From the sequence record OQ411014.1: 64,000 nt of DNA, one strand, 5' to 3'. Made by a program: the position numbers and the translations under genes. The DNA comes from Escherichia phage EJP2. Each line of letters begins with the position of its first letter. Position 1 is the first letter of the stretch. The notes below the pieces were generated by a model. That model ran no database searches and had not been told where the DNA came from. It was given only the letters and a program-made list of their open reading frames with translations. Positions 29,703-44,018 of this stretch are shown here, piece after piece.

Positions 29703-29905
29703 AATATTTCTTACACTTCGAAGATGATGATGAGTTTATTGTGGTACGTGAATTTACATTACCACATAAACCACAGAAAGGTGATTTCATTACAATTGGA
29801 ACTGAATACCATTCAGTACAATATGTAGTTCAAGAAGTCGATACGTTCCTTGATATTGAAAGTGCAGCGTATAGTGTGAATGTTCATTTGGAAAAACGAA
29901 AATAA
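29696..29905 (+). CDS. hypothetical protein (69 aa)
   Basis: ORF track. Confidence 0.45.
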   Translation: MLKYFLHFEDDDEFIVVREFTLPHKPQKGDFITIGTEYHSVQYVVQEVDTFLDIESAAYSVNVHLEKRK

Positions 29906-30252
29906 TGAAAATTGTATCAGTACTGGCTGGGTTGATTTTATGTAGTACTCAAGTATTGGCTAGTACAGTCGATACTGATGTGAATTATAAGAAAGAGTAC
30001 AAGACTGGTATTGCATCTGACCCATCATATTGTATTGGTTATGCGGATGCAAAGATGTTCCAGACAGGGAATCAGCAGTACTACGAATGGATGAAACAAT
30101 GGTACGAGGATCAAACTAGTAATACTGATTTGGTCATGAAGCCATTCAATCATCGTTCGTACGTTAACGGTACTGAAATGAATAATAACGATTTGACCGT
30201 TGAATGTGTAATGGAATTTGATTTCATTATCACTGACGAGGTACAACAGTGA
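29905..30252 (+). CDS. secreted protein (signal peptide)
   Basis: ORF track; N-terminus MKIVSVLAGLILCSTQVLAS. Confidence 0.5.
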   Translation: MKIVSVLAGLILCSTQVLASTVDTDVNYKKEYKTGIASDPSYCIGYADAKMFQTGNQQYYEWMKQWYEDQTSNTDLVMKPFNHRSYVNGTEMNNNDLTVECVMEFDFIITDEVQQ

Positions 30253-30258
30253 GGCTCT

Positions 30259-30723
30259 ATGAGTGTATTTGATTTGGTATCTAGTATTTCGTGGATTGAA
30301 GTAATAATCTTTATTGTACTTAGTGCAGTACTGTTCATGTTCATGTTCAACGATGATTACACGTACTGTAAAAAGATTCATAAAGCATGTGCAGAACCAG
30401 TATGGAAATCATTTTGGTATATGCAGTTCATCCCGAATAAGTTCATACGACCGTTTGAAAGCTGGTGTGATGTTTCAACCAGAACAGTCCCCACGATTGA
30501 AACGATTTTATCTCTCTATGAAGATAATCGAGATTCGTTGATTATCAAACTTATACCTACATTAGATGATGATACAATCGAATTCATATGCAAGAGATTA
30601 CCATCCGTATCAATTAGGGTTAGTAACAAAATGGTTGTGAACTACAGGACTGAGCATGTGATTCCACCACGAGTTCTTGTGGGTTTGTTGAATATGTACG
30701 AAATAGAACGAAAGAAAATCTAG
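30259..30723 (+). CDS. membrane protein (154 aa)
   Basis: ORF track; N-terminal TM. Confidence 0.5.
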   Translation: MSVFDLVSSISWIEVIIFIVLSAVLFMFMFNDDYTYCKKIHKACAEPVWKSFWYMQFIPNKFIRPFESWCDVSTRTVPTIETILSLYEDNRDSLIIKLIPTLDDDTIEFICKRLPSVSIRVSNKMVVNYRTEHVIPPRVLVGLLNMYEIERKKI

Positions 30724-30780
30724 ACATATACTTTGAGTGTGTTATAATACAGTCATCAAATAACAAGAAGAGAGGTTTAT

Positions 30781-31230
30781 ATGAACGTACTAGGAACGAA
30801 GTTCAGTACTGCAATGGGTGCACGTAATGGTTGGTTTACTATCAATGAAGTACTGGACGATACTTTCAAACATTACACGTTCAATCAGTGCCTAAAACTC
30901 AAAGTAACTCCAGAAACTAAAGATGACATGAACTTCATCGAGTGGGTTATGTATTGGGAAGGTTCACCCGTTGCAGTGCATTTACACGTTCTAACTACAG
31001 TATTGAGTACTGGTTATGTGAAAGCAACTGTCATCTCTAAGCGTCATGTATTCACTGATGAAATTGGTGAATTCCCAGGTAAACAAGCAATCATTGATGG
31101 TTACATGATTGATGGGAAATTCATGGATAAGAAGGGTGCAGAGGCATATCATACTCGTAAGCTAATGAACGGGAACTTCCGTCCAGCAGCTAAGATCCCT
31201 GATGCAGTCATTCAACCTAAACGTAAGTAA
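30781..31230 (+). CDS. hypothetical protein (149 aa)
   Basis: ORF track. Confidence 0.55.
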   Translation: MNVLGTKFSTAMGARNGWFTINEVLDDTFKHYTFNQCLKLKVTPETKDDMNFIEWVMYWEGSPVAVHLHVLTTVLSTGYVKATVISKRHVFTDEIGEFPGKQAIIDGYMIDGKFMDKKGAEAYHTRKLMNGNFRPAAKIPDAVIQPKRK

Positions 31231-31279
31231 TGTAGTCCCTCCTTAACTGGGGGGATTTAAACACATAAGGACAAAATAA

Positions 31280-31705
31280 ATGTTCAAATATTGTTTCCGT
31301 ACGTATGTAGTACTGTTCTTAGTACCAGCACTGTACTTGATTACTGCACAACTTAGTAAAATCTTCGAAAGTCTTAGCTTTTTGAATTTTACTGCACCAG
31401 AACAGTACAAAATTCTATTGACAATAATGTACGTTTTTTCTTTCATATTGTCAGTACTGATCATTTTCAATTCAGGATGTGACTACCGAGAGTTTCATAT
31501 TTTCAGAAACTTCAAGAACGTAACGTACTCAAAGTTCTGGAGTTATATACTCGCAGTCCCTGTTGTATTGAATTTCCATATTGAGGGCTTCTCGTTCACA
31601 ACTTTTATGCTCTTCATTGAACCAATTGCAATCTATATGTACATCCATCAACATAACCGATTCGTATTGAGTCATAATCTAGTCCACGTAGAGGAACAAC
31701 CATGA
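31280..31705 (+). CDS. multi-pass membrane protein (141 aa)
   Basis: ORF track; several hydrophobic helices. Confidence 0.5.
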   Translation: MFKYCFRTYVVLFLVPALYLITAQLSKIFESLSFLNFTAPEQYKILLTIMYVFSFILSVLIIFNSGCDYREFHIFRNFKNVTYSKFWSYILAVPVVLNFHIEGFSFTTFMLFIEPIAIYMYIHQHNRFVLSHNLVHVEEQP

Positions 31706-32199
31706 ATACGTATATCAGTGGGTTTTACAAGTACTACCTATCGTTCATAACTATATTTGCTATTCTGTTATTGAATGAAACAGAACAATTTGGATCAAAA
31801 TTCCTATCAGAAGGACTAGGAATCTTCCTTCAGGTTATCTTTGCACTGATGGCTGCTATATCAATGCCAGTACTGATCTATGGTATTCATCTTGTTGCGA
31901 GCGATGACCAGGATAGTAAGGACTCGTGTATCCGTGAGTACTGCCAAGCAGCAAAATACAGTACTATAAGTTCTATGATACCGTTTAGTCTAATTATTGT
32001 GTCCATCGCTATGTTCCAATGGAATCTGTGGTTCTTGGGTACGTTTGGATTTATTATGGGTTGTAGTATGTACGTGTATACTAAAGTACTATACAGAGGT
32101 GAGAAACTATTCACTGAAATGGAAGCCCGTAAAGGAACCAAAGCACCAGTTCAACGAGAAGAGCGAGATTATTTCGCACCAGACGATGAGTTACCTTGA
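31702..32199 (+). CDS. multi-pass membrane protein (165 aa)
   Basis: ORF track. Confidence 0.5.
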   Translation: MNTYISGFYKYYLSFITIFAILLLNETEQFGSKFLSEGLGIFLQVIFALMAAISMPVLIYGIHLVASDDQDSKDSCIREYCQAAKYSTISSMIPFSLIIVSIAMFQWNLWFLGTFGFIMGCSMYVYTKVLYRGEKLFTEMEARKGTKAPVQREERDYFAPDDELP

Positions 32200-32224
32200 C
32201 ACGTACCTGAAGAGTAGCTATAAT
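32196..32224 (+). promoter_or_regulatory. sigma70-type promoter TTGACA N17 TATAAT
   Basis: Canonical hexamers upstream of 32260 gene. Confidence 0.55.
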
Positions 32225-32259
32225 ACTTTCATTGAAGCGAAACTAACAAAGGAAACATA

Positions 32260-32514
32260 ATGGATACCGTACAGATTGAATCTTTGACTTCACTTGTTCT
32301 TGATAATGTAAAAGCTGAAGAAGAAATTTCAGTACAAATCAAAGCAGAGTATCAGTGCATTACTGAAAAGCTCCAAGATGCGAAGTACACTGTAACGAAA
32401 GAAATTGAAGAGCATTATAAGAACATTGAACGTCTGTTCCGTGTCAAGCAAGAACACATTGTTCGTCAGAATAACGCTAAGACTGCAATCAATAAACTTC
32501 TGGGAATCGCATAA
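32260..32514 (+). CDS. hypothetical protein (84 aa)
   Basis: ORF track. Confidence 0.5.
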   Translation: MDTVQIESLTSLVLDNVKAEEEISVQIKAEYQCITEKLQDAKYTVTKEIEEHYKNIERLFRVKQEHIVRQNNAKTAINKLLGIA

Positions 32515-32993
32515 TGAAAAACGTACAACAATACATTCAGAACTTCACCGCATATCCAGTATCAGTAATGTTCGGACATATCGATACACCTACTCCTAAG
32601 CAGAAGAAAGCGGAGAAACGTGTAGCAGAAATCTGTGAAGAACTGTATCGTTTTGATTGTACAGTACTATCAGATGTGCGAGCAGCATTCCGCGAGTTAG
32701 ATGTTCTTATCTCCTTGAGTGATGATAAGTTCCGCATCAAGCAAGTGCGTCTAACTCGTATGACTGGTCGTTTGGCATATTTTGTTGACAAAGCGGTTGT
32801 AATGCTCGATAATATGCACAAGAAAGACCAGCAACTTCAGCAGTACTGGCAACCGCTGTCAATGAAAGCTAAAGTACTGAAGGATGAAATCAAATCATTC
32901 CTTATCCAGTACGATACTTCAGTTGATAAGATTGTATTACTGTCTGAATTTGACAATGCATACAAAGAAGCCCAAGAGGAAGATAAGAAATGA
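32514..32993 (+). CDS. hypothetical protein (159 aa)
   Basis: ORF track. Confidence 0.55.
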   Translation: MKNVQQYIQNFTAYPVSVMFGHIDTPTPKQKKAEKRVAEICEELYRFDCTVLSDVRAAFRELDVLISLSDDKFRIKQVRLTRMTGRLAYFVDKAVVMLDNMHKKDQQLQQYWQPLSMKAKVLKDEIKSFLIQYDTSVDKIVLLSEFDNAYKEAQEEDKK

Positions 32994-33490
32994 CAACTGT
33001 TTTCGTGAGTAAAGAATTAGGAATTGCTATTACTGACTCACGAGCCACGTTTCAAGAGTCCAGGAAGTTTCTTGGGCTTTTTAACTTGACTCCATTACCA
33101 TCGTATAAAGTTGTGAATCAAAAGGCTTTGTATGTTCATGACCGTTTATTCTTAGCATGTGGAAGTGTAGATACTATTGATAAAGTATTGCAATATTTCA
33201 TCGACGGTACTAAGTTCAAGATAAACAAGAAAACTCCAAGCTGTGAGTGTCTTCTTCTTGGTAAAGAATACGGTGTACACTTGTACGTGTGGAATGGTAA
33301 GATTCATAAGAAGACTATCTTCTTGGCGTATAATTTTGTACACTTCATGGGGTCTGGTAGTTCTGCCCTACTCAGAAAGTACTACAAGACTTTAGAACGT
33401 AATACACCAGATGAAGTTATTGATATTTTCAAGACTGTACATTTGGATGATAGCTTCACTGACGATAACGTAAATTTATACAGAATCTAG
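32990..33490 (+). CDS. hypothetical protein (166 aa)
   Basis: ORF track. Confidence 0.55.
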   Translation: MTTVFVSKELGIAITDSRATFQESRKFLGLFNLTPLPSYKVVNQKALYVHDRLFLACGSVDTIDKVLQYFIDGTKFKINKKTPSCECLLLGKEYGVHLYVWNGKIHKKTIFLAYNFVHFMGSGSSALLRKYYKTLERNTPDEVIDIFKTVHLDDSFTDDNVNLYRI

Positions 33491-33519
33491 TTGACAGTCT
33501 AAAAGAGATATCATATAAT
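33491..33519 (+). promoter_or_regulatory. sigma70-type promoter TTGACA N17 TATAAT
   Basis: Canonical hexamers upstream of small ORF and sigma gene. Confidence 0.55.
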
Positions 33520-33549
33520 CATTGCATACCACAACGAGAGAGAAACAAA

Positions 33550-33696
33550 ATGAGTACATTCATCGTAGAATATGTTCTGACTGGTCAAAGCATCTGGCAG
33601 GTACAAATGGTAAAAGCATGTAATAAAGAGCAAGCCCAGAGCACGCTCAAGAAAATGATTTCTGGTGTAGTAACCACCAAAGCATACCCAGCATAA
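33550..33696 (+). CDS. small hypothetical protein (48 aa) upstream of sigma factor
   Basis: Uninterrupted frame found by hand; followed by terminator hairpin AATCCGC-TCTGT-GCGGATT plus T-run. Confidence 0.4.
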   Translation: MSTFIVEYVLTGQSIWQVQMVKACNKEQAQSTLKKMISGVVTTKAYPA

Positions 33697-33758
33697 TTTA
33701 GAGCTATAATGAATCCGCTCTGTGCGGATTCTTTTTTTTAATATCAAAGGAGAAAGTA

Positions 33759-34751
33759 ATGACTGTAAAACAACTCAATCTAGAATCTATTCAAGACGAT
33801 ATCATGGATGAATGTTTTGTAAATGAAAACAATACGTTCGAGCGTATTAGTGAACAGTCACATGACAGTACTGAAGAAGTAGAAGAAAGTACTGATGACG
33901 TAGGTTCTTTCAAGACTTACAACACATCTAGCGTTTTACCAGAAGGTGAGACGAATGAATCTATTATTCGTTTAATCCGTGACGGTATCAATGTGAAGCG
34001 TAACATTGACCTTATCGTACGTAACAACGTAGGCTTAGTATATAGCCAAGCACGTCAGTGTACTTGTAATATCCCATTCCAAGATAAAGCACAGTACGCT
34101 TTTGAAGGTCTAATGCGTGCAATCCATCGTTATGATGTGAATCAGAATATTCTTTTCAGTACTTACGCTACTGTGTCTATTCGCCAAACACTCTATAACT
34201 TTGGTAATGATGAAGTTCGTCTAATCAGTATTCCACGTCACTTGTCAGTGGATAACATCAAGATTCAGAACTACATTGAGAAGCATCGTTCTAAGTTCGG
34301 TCGTACCCCAAGTGAAGATGAAATCAGTACTGCTACTGGCATCAAGTTATCCGCAGTGAAACGTGTAGTGCAGTACATGAACAGTAAGCCAATGAGTTTC
34401 GATACTCCAATGGGTTCTGACAGTACTGAAAACGATATGAGCTTAGTGGATGTAATCCCAGGAACTTCCAATGATTACACACTAAGTGCAGATACAGTTC
34501 AGAAAGCACCACTAGATGTAATTGCATTGGTCATGTCTGAACTACCAGAAGAAGAGCAGTTGCTGATCAATAAGATTCACGGCTTGAATGGACATGAAGA
34601 AAGTACTTTTATTGCTCTAGAGACTGCTGGATTGGTAGATGCGAAGGGTAAGAAGCTAACTAACCGTTGCACTATTCATCGTCGTTACAATGCAATACTG
34701 GATAAGATTCGTAATATTCTAAAAGCACGTGACATTTCATTCGATGACTGA
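33759..34751 (+). CDS. RNA polymerase sigma factor, sigma70 family
   Basis: Region 2 match VGLVYSQARQ..FEGLMRAIHRYD..FSTYATVSIRQT and C-terminal region-4-like helix-turn-helix; AAGGAG RBS. Confidence 0.7.
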   Translation: MTVKQLNLESIQDDIMDECFVNENNTFERISEQSHDSTEEVEESTDDVGSFKTYNTSSVLPEGETNESIIRLIRDGINVKRNIDLIVRNNVGLVYSQARQCTCNIPFQDKAQYAFEGLMRAIHRYDVNQNILFSTYATVSIRQTLYNFGNDEVRLISIPRHLSVDNIKIQNYIEKHRSKFGRTPSEDEISTATGIKLSAVKRVVQYMNSKPMSFDTPMGSDSTENDMSLVDVIPGTSNDYTLSADTVQKAPLDVIALVMSELPEEEQLLINKIHGLNGHEESTFIALETAGLVDAKGKKLTNRCTIHRRYNAILDKIRNILKARDISFDD

Positions 34752-34911
34752 TATGATTCGTTACAAGGCAAACAAAGTACAAGGAACTGCTGTTGTAGTT
34801 TTCTTGTACTGGACTGAGAATCCGGTCTATGTTCTGGCAGAGAACAGTACTGTATCGCTGTCGGAGTTCATTGATATAGCAATTGAAGAATTCAAATCAT
34901 TAGAGGAATAA
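34744..34911 (+). CDS. small hypothetical protein (start uncertain)
   Basis: ORF track 34729..34911 (GTG); internal ATG chosen; weak RBS. Confidence 0.35.
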   Translation: MTDMIRYKANKVQGTAVVVFLYWTENPVYVLAENSTVSLSEFIDIAIEEFKSLEE

Positions 34912-34915
34912 TACT

Positions 34916-35287
34916 ATGTTGCACAAAGTTGAAGGTTCAAAGCACAATTGGATTGACGAATACGATATCTATGTTGGGTATGATACTTCCCCGTGTTGTT
35001 GTGAATATGCGGATTACTTCTTGAGTTATGAGATTGAGAGGAATGGAGTACCAGACGAAGAACTAATTGATAAAAGTACTTTCAAATGGGAAGAATACGA
35101 CTTCTATCCATTCGCATCTGCACTGATCGAAAACGTCCCAGGACTTGATGAAGGTGCTATTGCGATGTTCCCAATGATCCACAAAACGACTTCCCGTATG
35201 GTGTACTTGCACTTGTTTAACGCTCACAATGGTTATTACAGCCACGGGTTCGAAAGCAATACATTCATTGGTAACGGTTCTTTATAA
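34916..35287 (+). CDS. hypothetical protein (123 aa)
   Basis: ORF track; AGAGGA RBS. Confidence 0.55.
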   Translation: MLHKVEGSKHNWIDEYDIYVGYDTSPCCCEYADYFLSYEIERNGVPDEELIDKSTFKWEEYDFYPFASALIENVPGLDEGAIAMFPMIHKTTSRMVYLHLFNAHNGYYSHGFESNTFIGNGSL

Positions 35288-35296
35288 GGAATTTTT

Positions 35297-35470
35297 GTGA
35301 AAACTAAAAACTCAAAATCTTTAGGTACATATGTGAATGGTAATCGCTATGCGAAAATCAGTACATGTATTGATTGCAGTACTGGAAATACTTTATACTA
35401 TTACTGTATTCCTGGTGAGCGGGTGTATATCAGTTCAGAAGAATTCAAGAATGAATGGGTAAAAAACTAA
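35297..35470 (+). CDS. small Cys-containing protein (57 aa, GTG start)
   Basis: Uninterrupted frame found by hand; TAAGGAA RBS. Confidence 0.35.
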   Translation: MKTKNSKSLGTYVNGNRYAKISTCIDCSTGNTLYYYCIPGERVYISSEEFKNEWVKN

Positions 35471-35476
35471 AACAAA

Positions 35477-35512
35477 ATGCTTGACTTCGGTCGAGCATTC
35501 TTTTAATATAAT
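35477..35512 (+). promoter_or_regulatory. terminator-promoter module (hairpin containing -35 TTGACT, T-run, -10)
   Basis: ATGCTTGAC-TTCG-GTCGAGCAT hairpin then TTTT then TAATAT. Confidence 0.5.
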
Positions 35513-35549
35513 TGCATCAACTACACTACTACACTTGAGGATAACAATC

Positions 35550-35990
35550 ATGGCTTGGATTCACAGCAATCATTCTGAACTGAACAATTTCGATATCTTT
35601 GCATTCGTGAACATGCAAGAGAAGATCTTCATCAAAGGACGTCTCTGCACGCTCTCTGACGGCTCACGGGCCATCTGTAACATGAACAACAAGGGTGAAG
35701 TACTGGATATCGTTGCTCTTCCTGCGTGGGCTACTGTGCAGCCTGAAGAGGCACTTATGCGTCTACTCTTTGAAGAGATTGGTAAACTTCCAGGTACTGA
35801 TGTGGAGAACAAACTCTTCAACATCAAACACTCCAAGTACAGTGCTGACCAATTATCTGGTTTAACTGATACAGTACTGAAAGAAGTTGTAAGTAATCAA
35901 TGTAACGTAATTCTTAAGTACGTTCCTGAACTGGAACTGACTGAAGAAATGCTAGTGGAATTTGACATCAACGCTAAGGGTTCTCTATGA
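35550..35990 (+). CDS. hypothetical protein (146 aa)
   Basis: ORF track 35481..35990 trimmed (track start is the TTG of the promoter -35); ATG after GAGGA RBS. Confidence 0.55.
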   Translation: MAWIHSNHSELNNFDIFAFVNMQEKIFIKGRLCTLSDGSRAICNMNNKGEVLDIVALPAWATVQPEEALMRLLFEEIGKLPGTDVENKLFNIKHSKYSADQLSGLTDTVLKEVVSNQCNVILKYVPELELTEEMLVEFDINAKGSL

Positions 35991-36690: not shown

Positions 36691-36693
36691 TAA

Positions 36694-37029: not shown

Positions 37030-37058
37030 TTAATGCTCACTTCGGTGAGCATTTTTTT
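37030..37058 (+). terminator. rho-independent terminator
   Basis: GCTCAC-TTCG-GTGAGC hairpin followed by TTTTTTTT. Confidence 0.6.
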
Positions 37059-37654: not shown

Positions 37655-37903
37655 ATGAAGATTTTCAAATTTATTGCTGCTTCAGTACTAGCACTTTCCC
37701 TAAGTGCGTGTGATCGCGTAACAGAAGAACGTTCGCATGAGTTCGCACTTCCTTCTGAGTTAGTTCAAGCAGGATGTAAGATTTATCGTATGCGAGCTGA
37801 AAGTGGTGTAACTCTATATGCTTTGTATTGTCCTAATTCCACAACCACAACAAGCTACACCAGTGGTAAACAAACTCATCATGTCACTACGTACAGTAAC
37901 TAA
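37655..37903 (+). CDS. lipoprotein (82 aa)
   Basis: ORF track; AAGGAG RBS; signal MKIFKFIAASVLALSLSAC with lipobox LSAC. Confidence 0.55.
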   Translation: MKIFKFIAASVLALSLSACDRVTEERSHEFALPSELVQAGCKIYRMRAESGVTLYALYCPNSTTTTSYTSGKQTHHVTTYSN

Positions 37904-37905
37904 CT

Positions 37906-38676
37906 ATGTTCAAAATATCATACTACTCACCTAAGTGTATAACTGAGCTTACACAGTCAGAGATTGATGGTATTGACTGGACTGAAATAGATCCACCAAC
38001 AATGGATTCTATCCCAGAGGATTATCTACATCACGTCAAGAATCTTCCGATTCTCTTTGAAAAGAGAACACCTGGTACGGTCAGTGATGCGTGTCTTCGT
38101 AAGTTACTTCTCAAAAGCATGAAAGGACGTAGTACGTACTATCGTGATAGTATTTGTGAAAGTCTCTGTGACTGGGCTGGGCCAGAATTTAGTGCTAGAA
38201 ATGTGACAATGTTTGCACGTTTCATGCGAACTGGACCAATGTGGAGAACTAAACTCTACCTTATGAAACATAACATCATTAGCCTAAATGTTTACAGAAG
38301 TACCAAATCATTGAGTTCTGCAAACATGGAAGAAGTGCTGAGTTCTGTACATGTCCCAGTGCAGGAAAAGTTTGAGTACTTACTGCATTCGAATTACATT
38401 TTCGACAAGTACAATATCATTGACGAATCGTGCTTATTCGTTCATAATAAGTATCTCATAGATTTGGGCCTACCACCAATAGTGGTTAACCCTAACTCCA
38501 TGAACGAATATGAAGTACAAGAATGGAGTAATCTCGGATGTCTACAATGGGATGTTCTCCTTGATGCGTACCTTCGTGGAGAAATCGCTCCAGAATATCT
38601 GTATGACATTCATATGATGTTCTTTGATGAAAATAGCATGAAAGATAGAACCTTCTATTTTCGTGATAATGAATAG
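37906..38676 (+). CDS. hypothetical protein (256 aa)
   Basis: ORF track. Confidence 0.6.
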   Translation: MFKISYYSPKCITELTQSEIDGIDWTEIDPPTMDSIPEDYLHHVKNLPILFEKRTPGTVSDACLRKLLLKSMKGRSTYYRDSICESLCDWAGPEFSARNVTMFARFMRTGPMWRTKLYLMKHNIISLNVYRSTKSLSSANMEEVLSSVHVPVQEKFEYLLHSNYIFDKYNIIDESCLFVHNKYLIDLGLPPIVVNPNSMNEYEVQEWSNLGCLQWDVLLDAYLRGEIAPEYLYDIHMMFFDENSMKDRTFYFRDNE

Positions 38677-38682
38677 AATAAT

Positions 38683-38712: not shown

Positions 38713-38713
38713 G

Positions 38714-38740
38714 AAAAAAGAGTTGACACAGATTTCAGTA
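38714..38740 (+). promoter_or_regulatory. sigma70-type promoter TTGACA N15 TATAAT with TCAGTACTGA in spacer
   Basis: Spacer and -10 identical to promoter at 18701. Confidence 0.5.
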
Positions 38741-38801
38741 CTGATATAATTACTACATCAAGAACGAACTAACTAAAACACTCAAACATAGGATTAAAAA
38801 T

Positions 38802-38960
38802 ATGCCATATCTTCTGATTATTATCATTTCTTTCGGTGCAGGTATCTACAGTGGTAAAGTGATGTTTGAAAAAGAAATCACTGCTGGTGCTTGTTTGGAC
38901 AACAGTACTAAGTCCATCGGAGAGAAGTATGATGATATTATGAAAATCATCAAAGAATAA
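38802..38960 (+). CDS. small membrane protein (52 aa)
   Basis: Uninterrupted frame found by hand; AGGA RBS; preferred over antisense track ORF 38769..38975. Confidence 0.4.
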   Translation: MPYLLIIIISFGAGIYSGKVMFEKEITAGACLDNSTKSIGEKYDDIMKIIKE

Positions 38961-38987
38961 TTCTACACTATACAAAAGGAAACAACT

Positions 38988-39311
38988 ATGAAAGCTCTAC
39001 GTAACATTATCGCTTATGCAGTAATCTCTATGGGTATGACCTTTGCAGCACATGCAAACAGTTCTATCCTATGTGAATCGGAAAATGGCAAACAGCACGT
39101 TATGAAACATAACAGTACTGTTATGACTGTTCACGGTGAAAACTTCAACTTTGAACAAACTGGCACTCTCAAGAGCGGTGCGGATGTATTTGTTTACTGG
39201 AACCAAGAGCGTACTAAACTATTGGCGGTAACTTCTGCTGATAAGCAAACTATTGTTTATCAAATCATGGATAAGCGTCAACGTGTACTTGACATGGGTA
39301 CTTGTAACTAA
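38988..39311 (+). CDS. secreted protein (signal peptide)
   Basis: ORF track; AAGGAA RBS; N-terminus ends AAHA. Confidence 0.55.
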   Translation: MKALRNIIAYAVISMGMTFAAHANSSILCESENGKQHVMKHNSTVMTVHGENFNFEQTGTLKSGADVFVYWNQERTKLLAVTSADKQTIVYQIMDKRQRVLDMGTCN

Positions 39312-39371
39312 TATACTTTATGGGTGCATTAATATTGATGCACCTAAAACAACTAGCTCTGGAGTTTAGAT

Positions 39372-39677
39372 ATGATTGGTGTAAATTGGAATATCATTGT
39401 ATTATGTGTACCGTTGTTATTCATGACTATTGCAATGCTTGTCCGAATGTGGAAGCCCAGCATCACTGAAAAGGATATCGGATTCAATCCGCTGATTCAG
39501 CTACTCGACAATGTTTTATGTATGTGGGTAGTACTGGCATTCGTTTGGCTCTATGTATTCAATGAAGATTATCTAAACGCCAGAGCAGCACTGTATTCAA
39601 TGATTGCACTTGGGTGGTTGTGGTTGACGTGCTTCACTATTCAAACTACAGTAAAGTTCTTTCAAAATAAGGGTTGA
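39372..39677 (+). CDS. membrane protein (101 aa)
   Basis: ORF track. Confidence 0.5.
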   Translation: MIGVNWNIIVLCVPLLFMTIAMLVRMWKPSITEKDIGFNPLIQLLDNVLCMWVVLAFVWLYVFNEDYLNARAALYSMIALGWLWLTCFTIQTTVKFFQNKG

Positions 39678-39700: not shown

Positions 39701-39742
39701 TAATTTTGGGAACTTGATCTAGATCAATGTACAGGAGTAGTA

Positions 39743-40069
39743 ATGAAAAAGATATTTTTCAGCACTTTAGTAGTACTGAGTTTGTTGTCTTTCAATGTTA
39801 GTGCTTTAGAGTGCATAGATGATGCCGATAATCATTACATCATTGAGCCAGGAGAAGAAGATTCAGTACTGATCAATAACACAGAGTTTTATAAACTCAA
39901 TACGGAGGAATTCAAAGATACAGAGACAACCATTCATGATACTTGGTTACAGGATGAATCTGGAACCATTGCATTACTATCAGTAATAACAACAAAGAAA
40001 TCAAAAGAAGTTCAAACTAAACTGCACTTCGTCCAGGGAGATGAAATGTATAAGGGGATTTGTAAGTGA
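39743..40069 (+). CDS. secreted protein (signal peptide)
   Basis: ORF track; AGGAG RBS; N-terminus MKKIFFSTLVVLSLLSFNVSA. Confidence 0.55.
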   Translation: MKKIFFSTLVVLSLLSFNVSALECIDDADNHYIIEPGEEDSVLINNTEFYKLNTEEFKDTETTIHDTWLQDESGTIALLSVITTKKSKEVQTKLHFVQGDEMYKGICK

Positions 40070-40371
40070 ATACAACACGCGTCATAAACTATGTCATGGC
40101 AGACATGAAACAAGCGTACGAAGATGCATACGTACGTTACTTAGGGAAAGAGGAAGTTATTGCGACGCGAGTATACCTTGCATATGAGATGAGTTGTTCT
40201 ACACACCCTTCACTGAATAGCAAAGAAAACGCTAAGTTATTTCGTAAAGTAATTATTGACCACTACCGTAAAAACGGGTATCATATCCCTAGTGTTATGA
40301 AACTCTTCATGAATGTGATTCCTTCTAAGTATTCAGTTCATGGGGACTACGAGCCATTAACCTTAGAGTGA
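40066..40371 (+). CDS. hypothetical protein (101 aa)
   Basis: ORF track. Confidence 0.5.
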   Translation: MNTTRVINYVMADMKQAYEDAYVRYLGKEEVIATRVYLAYEMSCSTHPSLNSKENAKLFRKVIIDHYRKNGYHIPSVMKLFMNVIPSKYSVHGDYEPLTLE

Positions 40372-40377
40372 TAAACC

Positions 40378-40710
40378 ATGCAACTAAGAGAAGTACCATT
40401 AGTCCTGCCAGTACTGGCAAATTGTGTAGTACTGTTGATATTTGTATACGCATTCTTTGAATGTTTGTGTCACTTATATGTAACAGGAAGATACAGAAAC
40501 AAGTTCTTTGAGTACTCAAGAGTAGACGTAATTGCTTCAACATATTGTACGTTACTGTCGAGTACTTTGGTATGTGCTTTCTGTGTTTATATATTACCGG
40601 ACACATATTTCGCATTGACTATGTGGGCTATGATATCTAATGGTGCTGCTTTGATGTACCTGATATACATCGTGGACTACTGGAATCTAAAAAGAACTAA
40701 ACGTATATGA
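40378..40710 (+). CDS. membrane protein (110 aa)
   Basis: ORF track. Confidence 0.5.
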   Translation: MQLREVPLVLPVLANCVVLLIFVYAFFECLCHLYVTGRYRNKFFEYSRVDVIASTYCTLLSSTLVCAFCVYILPDTYFALTMWAMISNGAALMYLIYIVDYWNLKRTKRI

Positions 40711-40832
40711 TTTTATTCTTTATTTTATGTAGTACTGTAGTGTATACTCTCTTCGCTCCAAAGAAATCTACTATACAGATCTTGAGCGAAGAGATTAATA
40801 AATCCAAATCTAAATCCAATAAGGAGAAGTAA

Positions 40833-41084
40833 ATGTCACTACTTGCTTTTGTAGTACAAATGCTCATTGCAGTTTTAGTCGTACTTCCAGTACTGATCGC
40901 GTTATTCCGTGCTAAACAGGGTGTGTTCTTCGCAACAATGGGCTTGACATTTGTTATCCCAGTTGGACACCAAATCATCTTTGGTTCTTACGCAAACATG
41001 AGCAATACTGTACTAATTGTATATGGTGTATGTTATGTTACAGCACTAGCCCTCGCAATCTTCACTGAAGCAGATAAAGGATAA
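40833..41084 (+). CDS. membrane protein (83 aa)
   Basis: ORF track; AAGGAG RBS. Confidence 0.5.
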   Translation: MSLLAFVVQMLIAVLVVLPVLIALFRAKQGVFFATMGLTFVIPVGHQIIFGSYANMSNTVLIVYGVCYVTALALAIFTEADKG

Positions 41085-41088
41085 GAAC

Positions 41089-41592
41089 ATGCAACTAGAA
41101 AATTGGTTAGGATGGACTATCGTAGTAATATGTGTAGTACTGATGTATGCCCCACTAGTGCTGGTATTCGTCAAAACTAAAACAATCTCAATGCTGCTTC
41201 TGTCAATGGCAATCATTGCTGGTGCAGTAGGTGCACTCTTCGGTCAAGCATCTCCTAAAATCAGTGCAGTATTGATGGTAATGATTTGGGTAGTGATGTT
41301 GTTCGTTTCTCTCAAACTCATTTGGGCTGAGAAGGCTCCAATGTTTGAAGCTGATGAAAAGGGTAAGCGATGGTTCCTGTACTGCTTGAGTCATGATTTA
41401 CGTGTACGCATTACTGACGGAAAGATTGAGTACTATCTAGGTGAAGTAGTAACGCTTGACGAAATTCTAAAAGTGTATAAACTATCAGAACAGAATCATA
41501 ATGCATTACTTGACCAGATTGAAGCTGAAGAGTTCGCAGAACATCGTGAACAAATCAAGAAGGACTTAGCTGATTTGCGTTGTGCAAACTAA
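41089..41592 (+). CDS. membrane-anchored protein (167 aa)
   Basis: ORF track; terminator GGGAACC/GGTTCCC follows. Confidence 0.55.
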   Translation: MQLENWLGWTIVVICVVLMYAPLVLVFVKTKTISMLLLSMAIIAGAVGALFGQASPKISAVLMVMIWVVMLFVSLKLIWAEKAPMFEADEKGKRWFLYCLSHDLRVRITDGKIEYYLGEVVTLDEILKVYKLSEQNHNALLDQIEAEEFAEHREQIKKDLADLRCAN

Positions 41593-41646
41593 ACACTAGG
41601 GAACCGATGGGTTCCCTTTATTAATCCAACACACATAGAGAACAAA

Positions 41647-41946
41647 ATGAATTACATCTTATCTGTCATCTTCTTCAGTACTCTAATTGCGTATTCAGTC
41701 AATTCTTATAAAGAGAACATTGCACCAGATATGTATGAGTGTACAATAAATGTACAGTACGATACAGTACTGAAGACTAAGAAAGATACGTTCACATCCA
41801 CACGTCTGAACGAGATTGTAGACCACGGTGGTGCAATGCTGGGTGTTCATGTAGAAGATATGAAAGAAGATTCAGATTCATATAAAGGTGTAGTACTGAA
41901 ATATGAAGACGTAGTTGGTGGTAGTGTAGTGTGTAACAGAATATAA
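41647..41946 (+). CDS. hypothetical protein with N-terminal hydrophobic segment (99 aa)
   Basis: ORF track. Confidence 0.5.
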   Translation: MNYILSVIFFSTLIAYSVNSYKENIAPDMYECTINVQYDTVLKTKKDTFTSTRLNEIVDHGGAMLGVHVEDMKEDSDSYKGVVLKYEDVVGGSVVCNRI

Positions 41947-41961
41947 AAAGAGGTACGAGTG

Positions 41962-42135
41962 ATGAAAAAATGTACACTTTATGTATTGGCTTTTAGTATC
42001 TTTGCTGTACTGACATATTTTTCATTTTCTATCAAAGAAAGTTCTTCCCTTTGGGTATTCGTTGTGTTAGAATTCTTTTCGTTGGCAGTGACAATGTTGT
42101 TCATCGAACTATATTGTCGTTACATTAAAACTTAA
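41962..42135 (+). CDS. small membrane protein (57 aa)
   Basis: Uninterrupted frame found by hand; AGAGG RBS; below ORF-track cutoff. Confidence 0.4.
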   Translation: MKKCTLYVLAFSIFAVLTYFSFSIKESSSLWVFVVLEFFSLAVTMLFIELYCRYIKT

Positions 42136-42149
42136 ATGAGATACTAACC

Positions 42150-42785
42150 ATGACTAAACAAGATATTTTCAAAACTGTAATCAATGCTCTTCGGTCTGAA
42201 GAAGTTCGTTGTATGATGGAATACAACATCAATAAAGCCACTGACGCTATCGTTCCTGTTATTGAAGCTGCTGGCCTGGTGTTCGTTGGTATTGGTATGT
42301 ATTCTGTCGTTGTGGAGCATCCTAAGTACCCTGGACGTGTGTTTAAGGTTAGTACTTCACGTTGGGATGGTTTCCGTGAGTACGCTAAGTACTGCAAAGA
42401 TAACAGCAACAAACCATTTGTACCTGCTATCTATAGTGCTGAAGTTAAAGGTAACTTCGCATGGTATGAGATGGACAAATACTTCTCAATCATGAAGGCT
42501 GATGAATCTGATTTCGTAAGCAACAAAGCAGATGAAATGTATTCCTTTGCTAATGCTGGTCAGTACGGTTCATCTCTTCGTGAAGAGATGGATGTACAAC
42601 AGGATCGTATGGATATCTACAACTTCGCTAAGGAGTTAGAAAGTGCATACGGTTCGCGTTTCACGCTGGACATTCACACTGGCAATATCATGATGGATGT
42701 ATTCGGTAACTTCTTTATCACTGACCCACTTGCTGGTGATTTACGCCGCGAGATTCCAGTACTGGAAGAAGATCCAGTATTCTAA
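42150..42785 (+). CDS. protein kinase-like fold protein (211 aa)
   Basis: ORF track; glycine-rich GIGMYSVV, lysine in VFKV, catalytic-loop-like DIHTGNIMMD, DFG-like ITDP. Confidence 0.5.
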   Translation: MTKQDIFKTVINALRSEEVRCMMEYNINKATDAIVPVIEAAGLVFVGIGMYSVVVEHPKYPGRVFKVSTSRWDGFREYAKYCKDNSNKPFVPAIYSAEVKGNFAWYEMDKYFSIMKADESDFVSNKADEMYSFANAGQYGSSLREEMDVQQDRMDIYNFAKELESAYGSRFTLDIHTGNIMMDVFGNFFITDPLAGDLRREIPVLEEDPVF

Positions 42786-42794
42786 GGAGATATA

Positions 42795-43088
42795 ATGAAA
42801 GGTGCATTATTAGTAATTTTTGGAATGATTTTGATTTATTTTAGTGTTGACAAGTACACACAAAAGTCTGTACAATCAGTACCAGAAGCCCAAGAGACTT
42901 CACCAGTTCAGGAGCCACCAGCACCGGAACCTAAGTCCCAAGAGCAAGTACAAAACGAATACTACGCACATCACGTGTATCGTTTTAAAGATGACAAGTA
43001 CAAAGTTATTTGCTGGCGTATCATGAATATGAACCATGCAGGTTTATCTTGTCTCCCTGAACATTTGGTAAACGAAAGGACCGAATAA
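42795..43088 (+). CDS. membrane-anchored Pro/Gln-rich protein (97 aa)
   Basis: ORF track; AAGGAG RBS. Confidence 0.5.
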   Translation: MKGALLVIFGMILIYFSVDKYTQKSVQSVPEAQETSPVQEPPAPEPKSQEQVQNEYYAHHVYRFKDDKYKVICWRIMNMNHAGLSCLPEHLVNERTE

Positions 43089-43420
43089 TGAATATCATTT
43101 ATCCTAACACAAGCACCAATTTTGATGACGTTGTAAGTGTTCTGAACAATAACAGTACTGTAACAATTCAGTTTCAGTTATCACCAAGTACTGGTCTTCT
43201 TGTGAAGAAAGAAGTATCCAAATACGTTGGCTATGAAAACCAAACTGTAATTGAAGTTTCGTTCTATGAAGATGATGCATCTGTGTTCGGTCGCATGTCA
43301 TCTGGTACTGAAATTCATGCAGCAGATGAAGCACTATTAGTAGTGCGTGCACTAAAGGAACGCTTGGCTTCAACGTCACCAAGCGATGTCAGTTCTATCT
43401 CTCTAGCTCGCGTGTGGTAA
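43088..43420 (+). CDS. hypothetical protein (110 aa)
   Basis: ORF track. Confidence 0.5.
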   Translation: MNIIYPNTSTNFDDVVSVLNNNSTVTIQFQLSPSTGLLVKKEVSKYVGYENQTVIEVSFYEDDASVFGRMSSGTEIHAADEALLVVRALKERLASTSPSDVSSISLARVW

Positions 43421-43425
43421 ACGAA

Positions 43426-43728
43426 ATGAAACAGGTTATTATTGCAACGTTTGTATTTTTACTATTCACTCCAGTAACTTATGCTGGTATCAATCTGGAT
43501 TGTGTACTCACTAATTCATCTGGTGCAAAGATGCAGATCAATACCAGACAGACCTTTGGTGAATCTTATATTGAGTCAGATGCTTATATCAACTTCAAAG
43601 CAGTGGACTTTGTTGAAGGCTCGTTCATCAACTCCAACATGGTACTGGATAAGATTACTCTCAAGGGAGTGTTCAGTACTCAAAAGGATAACGGTAAAAC
43701 CCATCACGCAATGGTAGATTGTAACTAA
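43426..43728 (+). CDS. secreted protein (signal peptide)
   Basis: ORF track 43414..43728 (GTG) trimmed to ATG; N-terminus MKQVIIATFVFLLFTPVTYAG. Confidence 0.5.
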   Translation: MKQVIIATFVFLLFTPVTYAGINLDCVLTNSSGAKMQINTRQTFGESYIESDAYINFKAVDFVEGSFINSNMVLDKITLKGVFSTQKDNGKTHHAMVDCN

Positions 43729-43743
43729 GAGGAAAGCTAAGTT

Positions 43744-43827
43744 ATGACGTACTTATCTATTGCAGTTGTTGTATTTTTAGTTTTAGTCGTTTGTGCATTT
43801 GGGTATCTCATGACTAAAGGTGATTGA
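43744..43827 (+). CDS. membrane micro-protein (27 aa)
   Basis: GAGGAAAG RBS then ATG; single hydrophobic helix; speculative. Confidence 0.3.
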   Translation: MTYLSIAVVVFLVLVVCAFGYLMTKGD

Positions 43828-44018
43828 ATGTGAAATACATATTAGTCCTACTAGTATTATTCACTACATGCACAAATGCTAGTGCATTGAAGGAGCAGAA
43901 ATTCTTTGTATCCTTCTTTGCACCAGTACAAACGAAGCACATTAAATGGACGTATAATTCAAATCTACTAGAGTTGAATGAGCACAGGATTGGATTCGTT
44001 ATCAATTACGTGTGGTGA
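43824..44018 (+). CDS. secreted small protein (64 aa)
   Basis: ORF track (TTG start overlapping upstream stop); signal-peptide-like N-terminus. Confidence 0.4.
   Translation: MNVKYILVLLVLFTTCTNASALKEQKFFVSFFAPVQTKHIKWTYNSNLLELNEHRIGFVINYVW

What the first reader, a model, noticed from the sequence alone, without database searches (positions are those of the whole stretch)
29905..44018. About 14 kb module dominated by small secreted, lipoprotein and membrane proteins
More than 20 consecutive small genes encode signal-peptide proteins (29905, 35987, 38988, 39743, 43426), a lipoprotein (37655) or one-to-four-helix membrane proteins. That is a concentrated envelope-targeted module, as expected for superinfection exclusion, receptor masking or lysis inhibition, but the individual families are not ones I can name.
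Basis: partly seen in the sequence, partly recalled or inferred. Interest (0 to 1): 0.5.

Follow-up and report, generated by a model that had tools for sequence, protein, structure and literature searches.

The report
Phage early envelope-protein gene cluster
This stretch of the early region of jumbo coliphage EJP2 really is crowded with small secreted, lipid-anchored and membrane proteins from unnamed families, which most likely guard or remodel the infected cell's envelope, and it also contains an undescribed 470-nt structured RNA gene.

Summary
The window is Escherichia phage EJP2, a RaK2-like jumbo phage. Between 29905 and 44018 I count 35 + strand genes. Twenty-one are envelope-directed: 7 signal-peptide proteins, 1 lipoprotein and 13 membrane proteins. 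That is 60%, against 19% in the rest of the window (Fisher p about 1e-6). All 25 genes I could test against close metagenomic relatives have dN/dS of 0.03-0.35, so they are real genes.

The "more than 20 consecutive" claim is wrong. A nine-gene soluble block with a sigma factor, a T7 gp0.7-like kinase, other soluble genes and a 630-nt non-coding gap interrupt the run. It is also not one module: it holds at least 6 consensus sigma-70 promoters and 5 terminators, inside a window with 29 such promoters on + and none on -.

No envelope protein matches Pfam, NCBIfam or any PDB sequence. Recurrent units are a secreted protein with cysteines near both mature ends plus a ~110-aa 3-TM partner, and these pairs are conserved in Erwinia phage Hallingskeid. 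The secreted genes are divergence hot spots. The lipoprotein has Asp at +2, an inner-membrane retention signal, and no Llp-like fold.

Early envelope defence is plausible but untested. The gap encodes a covariation-supported RNA, absent from Rfam, present at 4-5 copies in most RaK2-like genomes.

The parts
29905..30252 (+). 115-aa secreted protein with signal peptide (cleavage predicted after VLA, residue 19); phrog_36332, function unknown
   Evidence: 65% identical homologue in Hallingskeid. dN/dS 0.13.
30259..32199 (+). Four genes: membrane protein 30259-30723 (N-terminal anchor), soluble 30781-31230 (phrog_16473), and multi-pass membrane proteins 31280-31705 and 31702-32199. A promoter lies at 30721-30748.
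32196..32224 (+). Perfect TTGACA-17-TATAAT promoter that opens the soluble block
32260..35990 (+). Nine soluble genes, not envelope proteins. They include the sigma-70-family sigma factor at 33759-34751. A perfect promoter lies at 33491-33519, and terminators at 33711-33731 and 35476-35499.
   Evidence: Pfam Sigma70_r2 and r3 above gathering score. phrog_351, 3576, 24804, 10011 and 37817.. g32260 and g35297 are absent from the close relative L073.
35987..36349 (+). 120-aa secreted protein with one Cys near the start and one near the end of the mature chain ('SP-Cys' type C). It is the first gene of a conserved unit.
   Evidence: Homologue at L001 16845-17177. 77.5% nucleotide identity to L073, against 92-98% for most other genes.
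36346..37023 (+). Two paralogous ~110-aa 3-TM proteins (36346-36690 and 36694-37023) with an R-K-x-I-P-D/E-E tail. A third paralogue lies at 46750-47082.
   Evidence: blastp E 4e-5. Family HMM also finds L001 17498, 17842, 34995, 35326 and 36452, and L003 27571. No PHROG or Pfam hit.
37032..37053 (+). Intrinsic terminator (9-bp stem followed by T8) that ends the preceding unit
37079..37549 (+). Gene for a ~470-nt structured non-coding RNA with its own promoter (-35 TGAGCA at 37046-37051; TGaTATAAT at 37066-37074). It is embedded in the interval but is not an envelope gene.
   Evidence: It is the only DNA in the interval conserved with known phages. Found in 71 phage records at 275 places. 18-sequence alignment: 96.2% of cells paired, 33 of 64 pairs with compensatory changes, covariation 0.497 against 0.07-0.10 in slid controls, 0/500 shuffles. 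47 unique copies: 81 pairs, 46 compensatory against 17-25 slid. No Rfam match at E<=10. Fold z-score -2.69.
37655..37903 (+). 82-aa lipoprotein: lipobox LSA|C, Asp at +2, and two further invariant Cys (C41, C59)
   Evidence: 84 phage records. 69 homologues, all on phage-sized or short contigs. Asp +2 in 52/66. AF2 pLDDT 76. No PDB fold match. BFVD returns only its own family.
37906..38676 (+). 256-aa soluble protein of unknown function
38723..38750 (+). Perfect TTGACA-16-TATAAT promoter with TG, 52 nt upstream of 38802
38802..39677 (+). Three genes: 52-aa single-TM protein (38802-38960), secreted SP-Cys protein type A (38988-39311) and 3-TM protein (39372-39677). An 11/12 promoter lies at 39289-39317.
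   Evidence: The first two are adjacent in Hallingskeid too (L001 24370 and 24539). g38988 is 77.4% identical to L073 at nucleotide level.
39743..40710 (+). Three genes: secreted SP-Cys protein type B (39743-40069, EJP02_444), soluble 101-aa protein (40066-40371) and 3-TM protein (40378-40710)
   Evidence: Types B and the 3-TM gene are adjacent in Hallingskeid (L001 26937 and 27268). The family has only 6 representatives among 1.84 billion proteins. AF2 model is poor, pLDDT 54.
40707..41592 (+). Three membrane proteins: 41 aa (1 TM), 83 aa (3 TM), and 167 aa (3 TM plus a soluble C-terminal part). They are followed by the terminator at 41598-41617.
   Evidence: dN/dS 0.12-0.23.
41647..42135 (+). 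99-aa secreted or anchored protein with Cys near both ends (41647-41946), and a 57-aa 2-TM protein (41962-42135)
   Evidence: Munch homologue at L003 17941-18252.
42150..42785 (+). T7 gp0.7-like protein kinase (soluble). It serves as a synteny anchor.
   Evidence: phrog_15752, E 1.3e-49. Annotated as kinase in Hallingskeid and Munch.
42795..43420 (+). 97-aa protein with an N-terminal anchor, a Pro/Glu-rich linker and a 2-Cys C-terminal domain (42795-43088), followed by a soluble 110-aa protein (43088-43420)
43426..44018 (+). Secreted SP-Cys protein type E (43426-43728) and a 64-aa signal-peptide protein (43824-44018). The terminator at 44042-44061 closes the interval.

Best explanation
The interval is not one module. 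It is a stretch of the host-RNA-polymerase-transcribed early, accessory region of jumbo phage EJP2. In it several short transcription units deliver small proteins to the inner membrane and periplasm soon after infection.

The recurring unit is a ~80-100-residue secreted protein whose mature chain begins and ends near a cysteine, probably forming a terminus-to-terminus disulfide. It is encoded next to a ~110-residue three-helix inner-membrane protein. An inner-membrane-retained lipoprotein and further one- to three-helix proteins accompany these units.

I infer that these proteins act from the periplasmic side and the inner membrane to alter the infected cell's envelope. The most likely role is to stop DNA entry or wall penetration by later-arriving phages (superinfection exclusion in the manner of T4 Imm and Spackle). 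A related possibility is protection of the envelope against rival phages or host membrane effectors.

Shown here:
- The genes are real.
- Envelope-targeting signals are predicted and enriched.
- Early-type promoters are present.
- Gene pairs are conserved.
- The secreted components are allelic hot spots.

Inferred only:
- Timing of expression.
- Disulfide formation.
- Physical pairing of the secreted and membrane partners.
- The exclusion function.
For: Enrichment of signal-peptide, lipoprotein and TM genes: 23/36 against 21/110, p=1.3e-6.

Purifying selection on every tested gene, dN/dS 0.03-0.35. Shine-Dalgarno motifs or translational coupling for most genes.

The window has 29 promoters within one mismatch of TTGACA-N16-18-TATAAT on the + strand and none on the - strand, against about 2 expected. 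Most lie 18-55 nt upstream of a gene start, and six lie in or at the interval. The neighbouring genes are typical early functions: a sigma factor and a gp0.7-like kinase.

Gene pairs conserved between EJP2 and Hallingskeid despite only 25-47% protein identity:
- 35987 with two 3-TM paralogues.
- 38802 with 38988.
- 39743 with 40378.

The 3-TM family is multi-copy: 3 copies in the window and 5 in 40 kb of Hallingskeid.

The three SP-Cys genes covered by close relatives are the most divergent genes. Their nucleotide identity is 77-85%, against 92-98% for most other genes, with raised pS of 0.41-0.51. This is the pattern of allele exchange expected for proteins facing a variable partner.

The syntenic parts of Hallingskeid and Munch are also membrane-gene rich: 8/10 genes and 14/30 genes in the corresponding bins.

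Precedents. T4 Spackle is an early periplasmic protein that blocks the gp5 lysozyme (PMC7677548). T5 Llp is a small periplasmic lipoprotein with a disulfide constraining its termini (PMC9586334).
Against: No envelope protein matches any named family:
- Pfam, including Imm_superinfect.
- NCBIfam.
- PDB sequences.
- PHROGs returns only unknown-function families.

The lipoprotein model has no structural match in PDB.

Homology among the SP-Cys subfamilies is not demonstrable. hhalign P values are 0.06 or worse, except types B and C at 0.0035. The shared architecture could therefore be convergent, or simply what small periplasmic proteins look like.

The AF2 model of 39743 is unusable, pLDDT 54.

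Signal peptides and helices were called with home-made hydropathy rules, not with trained predictors.

Promoter matches are consensus hits, not mapped transcription start sites.

The interval is interleaved with soluble genes, so a common function for all 21 envelope proteins is unlikely.
Confidence: 0.45

Rival explanations
1. This is a plastic accessory region with no shared function. It would be an accumulation zone for small, fast-evolving, individually dispensable early genes acquired and lost by recombination. Membrane proteins would be over-represented only because small phage orphan genes often are hydrophobic. Their targets would be diverse: transporters, division, respiration or host defence effectors.
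For: The interval has many independent promoters and terminators.

Soluble regulators are interleaved with the envelope genes.

Gene order and spacing differ in Hallingskeid and Munch, and 121Q shares none of the proteins.

Presence/absence polymorphism occurs even in a 95%-identical relative: g32260 and g35297 are missing from L073.

The g39743 family has only 6 representatives in 1.84 billion proteins.

Membrane-gene runs also occur elsewhere in the window: 46750, 52274 and 58287-60477.
Against: Secreted-protein plus 3-TM gene pairs stay adjacent across about 50-75% protein divergence.

The 3-TM family is retained in several copies.

All genes are under purifying selection.

The divergence hot spots fall specifically on the secreted components. 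That points to a common kind of interaction rather than random content.
Confidence: 0.35
2. The cluster masks outer-membrane receptors in the manner of T5 Llp or the Cor proteins. The lipoprotein, and perhaps the secreted proteins, would bind an outer-membrane receptor from the periplasm and make it unusable for incoming phages.
For: The fEgEco12 homologue of 37655 was deposited as "lytic conversion lipoprotein".

The protein resembles Llp in being a small lipoprotein with two additional conserved cysteines (PMC9586334).
Against: Asp follows the lipidated Cys in 52 of 66 members. From established knowledge of E. coli lipoprotein sorting, this is the inner-membrane retention signal.

There is no sequence match to any PDB chain, a set that includes the FhuA-Llp entry.

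There is no fold match, best Foldseek E 0.8.

According to its description, EJP2 uses the LPS outer core rather than a TonB-dependent transporter (PMC10213699).
Confidence: 0.07
3. This is a lysis or lysis-inhibition cassette, with holins, antiholins and spanins that control the timing of lysis.
For: There are many small one- to three-helix proteins, one N-terminally anchored periplasmic protein of 97 aa (42795) and one lipoprotein.
Against: No endolysin or muramidase lies in or next to the interval.

No gene is embedded or overlapping in the Rz/Rz1 manner. The lipoprotein's Asp +2 does not fit an outer-membrane spanin.

The promoters are the host-type early kind.

There is no sequence match to any solved structure in the PDB.
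Confidence: 0.05
4. The hydrophobic ORFs are a gene-calling artefact of T-rich, 37% G+C DNA.
For: AT skew turns negative at 36-38 kb and 42-44 kb.

Many of the ORFs are short, and 8 of the 21 envelope proteins found no homologue in the Hallingskeid, 121Q or Munch loci.
Against: dN/dS is 0.03-0.35 in all 25 testable genes.

Most have ribosome-binding sites or translational coupling.

Protein-level homologues exist in Hallingskeid and Munch.

The one place where ORF callers do go wrong is the RNA gene. Small spurious CDS are annotated over it in other phages.
Confidence: 0.02

Closest known systems
T4 superinfection-exclusion pair Imm (inner-membrane protein) and Sp/Spackle (periplasmic inhibitor of the gp5 tail lysozyme)
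   Same: Both are small early gene products of a large virulent myovirus. One is secreted to the periplasm through a cleavable signal peptide, and the other is a short multi-helix inner-membrane protein. Both act at the envelope (PMC7677548). The predicted early promoters and the secreted-plus-membrane pairing here fit this way of working.
   Different: There is no Pfam Imm_superinfect hit and no sequence match to any solved structure in the PDB. Here the secreted and membrane genes are adjacent and present as several diverged units. The secreted proteins are predicted to be all-beta, on a low-confidence model. No function has been tested.
T5 Llp and the Cor small lipoproteins (receptor-inactivating superinfection exclusion)
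   Same: 37655 is likewise a small phage lipoprotein with additional conserved cysteines. Llp has a disulfide constraining its termini (PMC9586334), which resembles the Cys-near-both-ends layout of the secreted proteins here. One homologue carries the Llp product name in GenBank.
   Different: Asp at +2 predicts inner-membrane rather than outer-membrane anchoring. There is no sequence or fold similarity. The family occurs in RaK2-like, Certrevirus and Aeromonas T4-like phages, not in the T5/T1 group.
Plastic (hyperplastic) early regions of T4-like and other large virulent phages (my own knowledge of the T4 comparative-genomics literature; not checked in a paper here)
   Same: A conserved backbone of anchor genes (sigma factor, kinase) is separated by variable sets of small orphan genes. 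These are transcribed from many strong host-type promoters and vary by presence or absence among close relatives.
   Different: The degree of envelope bias (17 of 21 genes in 35987-44018) and the repeated secreted-plus-3-TM units are specific observations made here.
Large structured RNAs linked to phages, such as GOLLD and ROOL (comparison for the embedded RNA gene only)
   Same: The RNA is hundreds of nucleotides long, has many helices supported by covariation, is carried by phage genomes and has no known function (PMC12286853 listed).
   Different: There is no Rfam match to GOLLD, ROOL or any other family at E<=10. It is not linked to tRNA genes: 1 of 36 loci had any nearby. It occurs at 4-5 copies per genome in most records (2 detected in the RaK2/K64-1 group), each with its own promoter, and is confined to RaK2-like jumbo phages of Enterobacterales and relatives.

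Membership tests
T5 Llp / Cor superinfection-exclusion lipoproteins | Signal peptide ending in a lipobox with an invariant Cys | tested here: met
   37655 has LSA|C at residues 16-19. The Cys is invariant in 66 homologues.
T5 Llp / Cor superinfection-exclusion lipoproteins | Detectable sequence similarity to Llp or Cor | tested here: not met
   phmmer against all PDB chains at E<=1 gave 0 hits. Pfam gave no family at E<=5. NCBIfam gave only chance-level hits.
T5 Llp / Cor superinfection-exclusion lipoproteins | Llp-like fold | tested here: not met
   The AF2 model (pLDDT 76) searched against PDB by Foldseek gave a best E of 0.8 and TM <=0.32. BFVD returned only its own family. The model is of moderate confidence and included the signal peptide.
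T5 Llp / Cor superinfection-exclusion lipoproteins | Sorting to the outer membrane, where it can reach the receptor | tested here: not met
   Asp at +2 in 52/66 members and Glu in 4. Asp +2 is the E. coli Lol-avoidance signal (established knowledge). The +3 residue Arg in EJP2 may weaken it, so fractionation is needed.
T5 Llp / Cor superinfection-exclusion lipoproteins | Blocks infection through a defined receptor | not testable with these tools
   Needs plating and adsorption assays.
T4 Imm (Pfam Imm_superinfect) | Match to the family profile | tested here: not met
   No Pfam hit at E<=0.1 for any of the 35 proteins. The gene annotated as Imm in Hallingskeid (L001 28856-29131) has no significant match in the window, best E 0.2.
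T4 Sp (Spackle) | Sequence similarity to Spackle | tested here: not met
   No PDB sequence hit at E<=1.
T4 Sp (Spackle) | Small early periplasmic protein with a cleavable signal peptide | tested here: inconclusive
   Seven proteins have the architecture by rule-based prediction, and early-type promoters lie upstream. Neither export nor timing has been measured.
Holin / antiholin / spanin lysis cassette | Adjacent endolysin, and an i-spanin/o-spanin gene pair with an outer-membrane lipoprotein | tested here: not met
   No lysozyme or amidase family was found in the interval. The gene after the lipoprotein is a 256-aa soluble protein. Asp at +2.
Pfam PF16225 (DUF4884) | Profile match above the gathering score | tested here: inconclusive
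   The collection's precomputed tags list PF16225 for 37655 and all 69 homologues. My own hmmscan of 37655 against Pfam-A gave no family at E<=5.
Sigma-70 family sigma factor (33759-34751) | Regions 2 and 3 above the Pfam gathering scores | tested here: met
   Sigma70_r2 scored 34.9 bits against a cut-off of 24. Sigma70_r3 scored 32.7 bits against 25.3. phrog_351, E 3.6e-51.
T7 gp0.7-like protein kinase (42150-42785) | Full-length match to the phage kinase family | tested here: met
   phrog_15752, E 1.3e-49, over residues 1-211. There is no Pfam kinase hit, so this is membership at PHROG level only.
Any Rfam 15 RNA family (for 37079-37549) | Covariance-model match | tested here: not met
   No hit at gathering score in the window apart from the tRNAs. 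There were only chance-level hits at E<=10, mostly over the flanking terminator.

The most novel reading that the evidence does not exclude
The best-conserved element of this "envelope module" is not a protein gene. The segment 37079-37549 encodes a new family of large (~425-600 nt), multi-helix RNAs. They are transcribed from their own promoters and kept at 4-5 diverged copies in most RaK2-like jumbo phage genomes. They would act in trans as a ribozyme, a ribonucleoprotein scaffold or a self-assembling RNA during early infection. Alongside it, the secreted-Cys plus 3-TM gene pairs could be a new, duplicating two-part exclusion system.
Probability: 0.55. Interest if true: 0.75.

Novelty: new variant of a known kind. 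Interest (0 to 1): 0.5.

Why it matters
RaK2-like jumbo phages are being developed against resistant E. coli, Klebsiella and Salmonella, yet more than 80% of their genes are unnamed.

This analysis offers short testable lists:
- Three conserved secreted-plus-membrane gene pairs.
- One widespread lipoprotein predicted to be retained in the inner membrane.
- A multi-copy 3-TM family.

These are candidates for how such phages close the door behind themselves or resist competitors. That bears on phage cocktail design and on the evolution of superinfection exclusion.

Separately, a covariation-supported ~470-nt RNA is present in several copies in every RaK2-like genome examined, and ORF callers annotate over it. 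It would add a new large RNA to a very short list and would correct dozens of GenBank records.

Tried and rejected
1. Near-identical DNA search. The phage collection does not hold EJP2. Only the RNA gene matched. Identity came from an exact protein match.

2. Named families for the envelope proteins. Pfam, PHROGs, NCBIfam and PDB sequences gave nothing usable. I discarded two weak hits as signal-peptide or helix composition:
- 37655 against DcrB lipoprotein, E 0.03.
- The N-terminus of 40378 against Hok, E 8.5e-4 and 19 bits against a cut-off of 73.

3. Paralogy of the secreted Cys proteins. blastp all-against-all and hhalign of two-sequence profiles do not show it, apart from types B and C at P 0.0035. 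I therefore call it a shared architecture, not a family.

4. Structure of 39743 from a 5-row alignment. The pLDDT was 54, so I did not use it for a fold search.

5. The word-indexed protein search with single queries found only the protein itself or one relative. An alignment query was needed to reach the family.

6. A second RNA copy in the window or at Hallingskeid 23821-24388, where spurious minus-strand CDS looked similar. nhmmer found none.

7. Homology of the RNA to PA5oct ncRNA002, which has the same length and is highly expressed by RNA-seq. nhmmer --max gave no hit.

8. Linkage of the RNA to tRNA genes or to a constant neighbouring gene. Neither was found.

9. A full covariance model of the RNA was not built, because the alignment exceeds the 400-column limit. 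I used an nhmmer profile and RNAalifold instead.

10. Homology among the six 3-TM genes at 58287-60477. phmmer gave no hit.

Full report
**Source and setting**

The 108-aa product of 39743-40069 is identical to EJP02_444 of Escherichia phage EJP2, on a 349,185-bp contig. EJP2 is a jumbo myovirus with 540 ORFs, 471 of them hypothetical, 6 tRNAs and the LPS outer core as receptor (PMC10213699). All six tRNAs lie in this window.

At protein level the closest annotated relatives are Erwinia phage Hallingskeid (25-82% identity) and Salmonella phage Munch. 121Q-type phages share none of the interval's proteins.

The window is almost entirely + strand. It carries 29 promoters within one mismatch of TTGACA-N16-18-TATAAT on the + strand and none on the - strand, against about 2 expected. 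Thirteen are perfect, and most lie 18-55 nt upstream of a start codon. From established knowledge of large virulent phages that lack their own RNA polymerase, I read this as an early region transcribed by the host polymerase. This is inference; no transcription data exist.

**Checking the observation**

I curate 35 + strand genes between 29905 and 44018. Hydropathy and rule-based calls give 7 cleavable signal peptides, 1 lipoprotein and 13 membrane proteins, that is 21 of 35.

The automatic count is 23/36 inside against 21/110 outside (Fisher p=1.3e-6). For 35987-44018 it is 18/22 against 26/124 (p=6.7e-8). Two of the inside positives are false: the hydrophobic core of the kinase, and g34729.

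Two metagenomic contigs are collinear with window 29313-40619 and 39552-41971, at 89-96% nucleotide identity. Against these, all 25 comparable genes have dN/dS of 0.03-0.35. The small hydrophobic ORFs are therefore real genes.

What fails is "more than 20 consecutive":
- The longest unbroken run of envelope genes is six.
- The block 32260-35990 is nine soluble genes, including a sigma factor (Pfam regions 2 and 3 above threshold).
- 42150-42785 is a gp0.7-like kinase.
- 37024-37654 has no gene on the coding strand.

**Is it one module?**

It is not. The interval contains promoters at 30721, 32196, 33491, 38723 and 39289, and intergenic terminators at 33711, 35476, 37032, 41598 and 44042.

In Hallingskeid the sigma factor and the conserved RNA gene lie 13.4 kb apart, against 2.3 kb here. 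Homologues of several interval genes sit in a different order. Even the 95%-identical relative L073 lacks g32260 and g35297.

Membrane-gene runs also occur beyond the stated end, at 46750 and at 58287-60477. The syntenic parts of Hallingskeid and Munch are membrane-rich too. The envelope bias is therefore a property of this part of the genome in the whole clade.

**Anatomy of the envelope genes**

Four secreted proteins share a layout: 35987, 38988, 39743 and 43426. A fifth, 41647, shares it loosely. The layout is a signal peptide, a Cys within a few residues of the predicted cleavage site, 75-95 residues, then G-x-C one to three residues from the C-terminus.

Homology among them is not demonstrable. 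I treat this as a shared architecture.

Each lies beside membrane genes, and three arrangements are conserved in Hallingskeid:
- 35987 followed by two 3-TM genes (L001 16845, 17498, 17842).
- 38802 followed by 38988 (L001 24370, 24539).
- 39743 with 40378 (L001 26937, 27268).

The 3-TM proteins 36346, 36694 and 46750 form a true family with a conserved acidic tail. The family has five members in the Hallingskeid locus and one in Munch. It is absent from PHROGs and Pfam.

The three secreted genes covered by the close relatives are the most divergent genes of the region. Their nucleotide identity is 77-85%, against 92-98% for most other genes. Synonymous and non-synonymous differences are both raised. 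This looks like allele replacement by recombination rather than relaxed constraint.

The 39743 family has only six 50%-identity representatives among 1.84 billion proteins.

**The lipoprotein**

37655 belongs to a phage-only family with 84 phage records and 69 cluster representatives. It is found in RaK2-like phages, Certrevirus and Aeromonas T4-like phages. The lipid-modified Cys and two further Cys are invariant.

Asp follows the lipidated Cys in 52 of 66 members. In E. coli that signals retention in the inner membrane (established knowledge).

A GenBank homologue is labelled "lytic conversion lipoprotein". I found no sequence match to any solved chain. A pLDDT-76 model has no fold match in PDB and matches only its own family in BFVD. 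It therefore fails the Llp membership tests, although it may still act as an exclusion factor, from the inner membrane.

**Mechanism**

The best-supported reading is that several early units export small proteins to the periplasm and inner membrane, in secreted-plus-3-TM pairs. There they change the envelope of the infected cell. The most likely role is to exclude later-arriving phages at the wall-penetration or DNA-entry step, as T4 Spackle and Imm do (PMC7677548). The divergence hot spots on the secreted components fit proteins that face variable phage partners.

Every functional step is inferred. I rate the envelope-directed early accessory part at about 0.85 and the exclusion function at about 0.4.

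The rivals are:
- A functionally mixed plastic region is the main rival.
- Receptor masking is disfavoured by the sorting signal.
- A lysis cassette is disfavoured by gene content and promoter type.
- A gene-calling artefact is excluded by dN/dS.

**The embedded RNA gene**

A megablast of the whole interval against 50,697 phage records matched only window 37104-37554. This is the gap after the terminator at 37032.

A sensitive search found the element in 71 records at 275 places. Most records hold 4-5 copies; the RaK2/K64-1 group shows 2 detected places. The records span RaK2, K64-1, 121Q, PBECO4, GAP32, CBB, XbC2, Serratia BF, fHe-Yen9-04, Munch and Hallingskeid. The element always lies in a 550-650-nt gap, or under tiny spurious CDS. 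In RaK2 it directly follows the sigma factor gene. Only one copy lies in this window.

Nearly all copies have a TATAAT box, here with a TGn extension at 37066-37074.

An 18-sequence alignment gives the following:
- 64 consensus pairs in 15 helices, including a closing helix between GAUG (near 37140) and CGUC (37539-37542).
- 96.2% of cells paired.
- 33 pairs with compensatory changes.
- A covariation score of 0.497, against 0.07-0.10 when partners are slid.
- 0 of 500 shuffles reach the observed values.

With 47 unique copies from phage, viral and metagenome collections (median pairwise identity 62%), 81 pairs are predicted. Of these, 46 are compensatory, against 17-25 in slid controls.

Further properties of the RNA:
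- The EJP2 copy is 98.5% identical to its close relative, making it the best-conserved segment of the interval.
- There is no Rfam 15 match at E<=10.
- It is not linked to tRNAs or to a fixed neighbouring gene.
- Outside phage-sized contigs it is essentially absent: 2 hits on ~200-kb contigs in 185,579 genomes.
- I found no description of it in papers on these phages.
- PA5oct, a distant relative, expresses an unannotated 451-nt RNA at about 5% of phage reads. It is not detectably homologous.

A long cis-acting leader for the downstream gene is the main alternative to a trans-acting RNA. The variable downstream genes argue against it, as does a separate promoter-like site at 37561-37589 upstream of the downstream gene 37655.

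**Verdict**

The envelope genes are new families of a familiar kind. The RNA is the most unexpected item in the interval.

Noticed in passing
window 37079-37549 (+); promoter at 37046-37074: An undescribed ~470-nt structured RNA gene. It has strong covariation support, is present at 4-5 copies in most RaK2-like jumbo phage genomes (2 detected in the RaK2/K64-1 group), has no Rfam match and is often overlaid by spurious small CDS in GenBank records.
   Followed up: yes
window 58287-60477 (+): Six consecutive genes of 100-118 aa. Each has about three predicted helices and a basic C-terminal tail. They share an architecture but show no phmmer similarity to each other or to the 36346 family.
   Followed up: partly
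whole window, + strand: There are 29 promoters within one mismatch of TTGACA-N16-18-TATAAT, 13 of them perfect, all on the + strand and none on the - strand. Most lie 18-55 nt upstream of a gene. This is an unusually dense array of consensus host-type promoters.
   Followed up: partly
window 682-12769: All six tRNA genes of the phage lie here. They include three tRNA-Ser, one of them with anticodon ACT (11102-11191), which is an unusual A34 anticodon.
   Followed up: no
window 48861-50039 (-) and 62571-63701 (-): Two of the few minus-strand genes are paralogues (31% identity, E 2e-18). 48861-50039 matches the tandem genes annotated as "DNA condensation protein" in Munch; Hallingskeid carries a similarly placed minus-strand gene annotated "regulator of chromosome condensation".
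   Followed up: no
window 32260-32514 and 35297-35470, compared with L073: These two small soluble genes are precisely absent from a 95%-identical metagenomic relative. The first deletion starts just after the perfect promoter at 32196.
   Followed up: partly
window 54806-55102 and 56939-57775: Two genes share an 83%-identical N-terminal stretch of about 23 residues and nothing else. This may be a shared leader or a recombination scar.
   Followed up: no
L004, L005, L006, L007, L008, L010, L012, L014 (RNA copies in other phages): Many copies of the RNA carry an extra hairpin followed by a run of six or more U, resembling an intrinsic terminator. It lies inside the RNA, just before the last conserved CCCC/GGGG hairpin. 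The EJP2, Hallingskeid and Munch_a copies lack it.
   Followed up: no
L027 (an Enterobacteriaceae MAG) and L028 (Serratia sp. 2723): The RNA's 27-nt core occurs on ~200-kb contigs filed under bacterial genomes. These are probably jumbo-phage contigs binned or assembled with the host.
   Followed up: no
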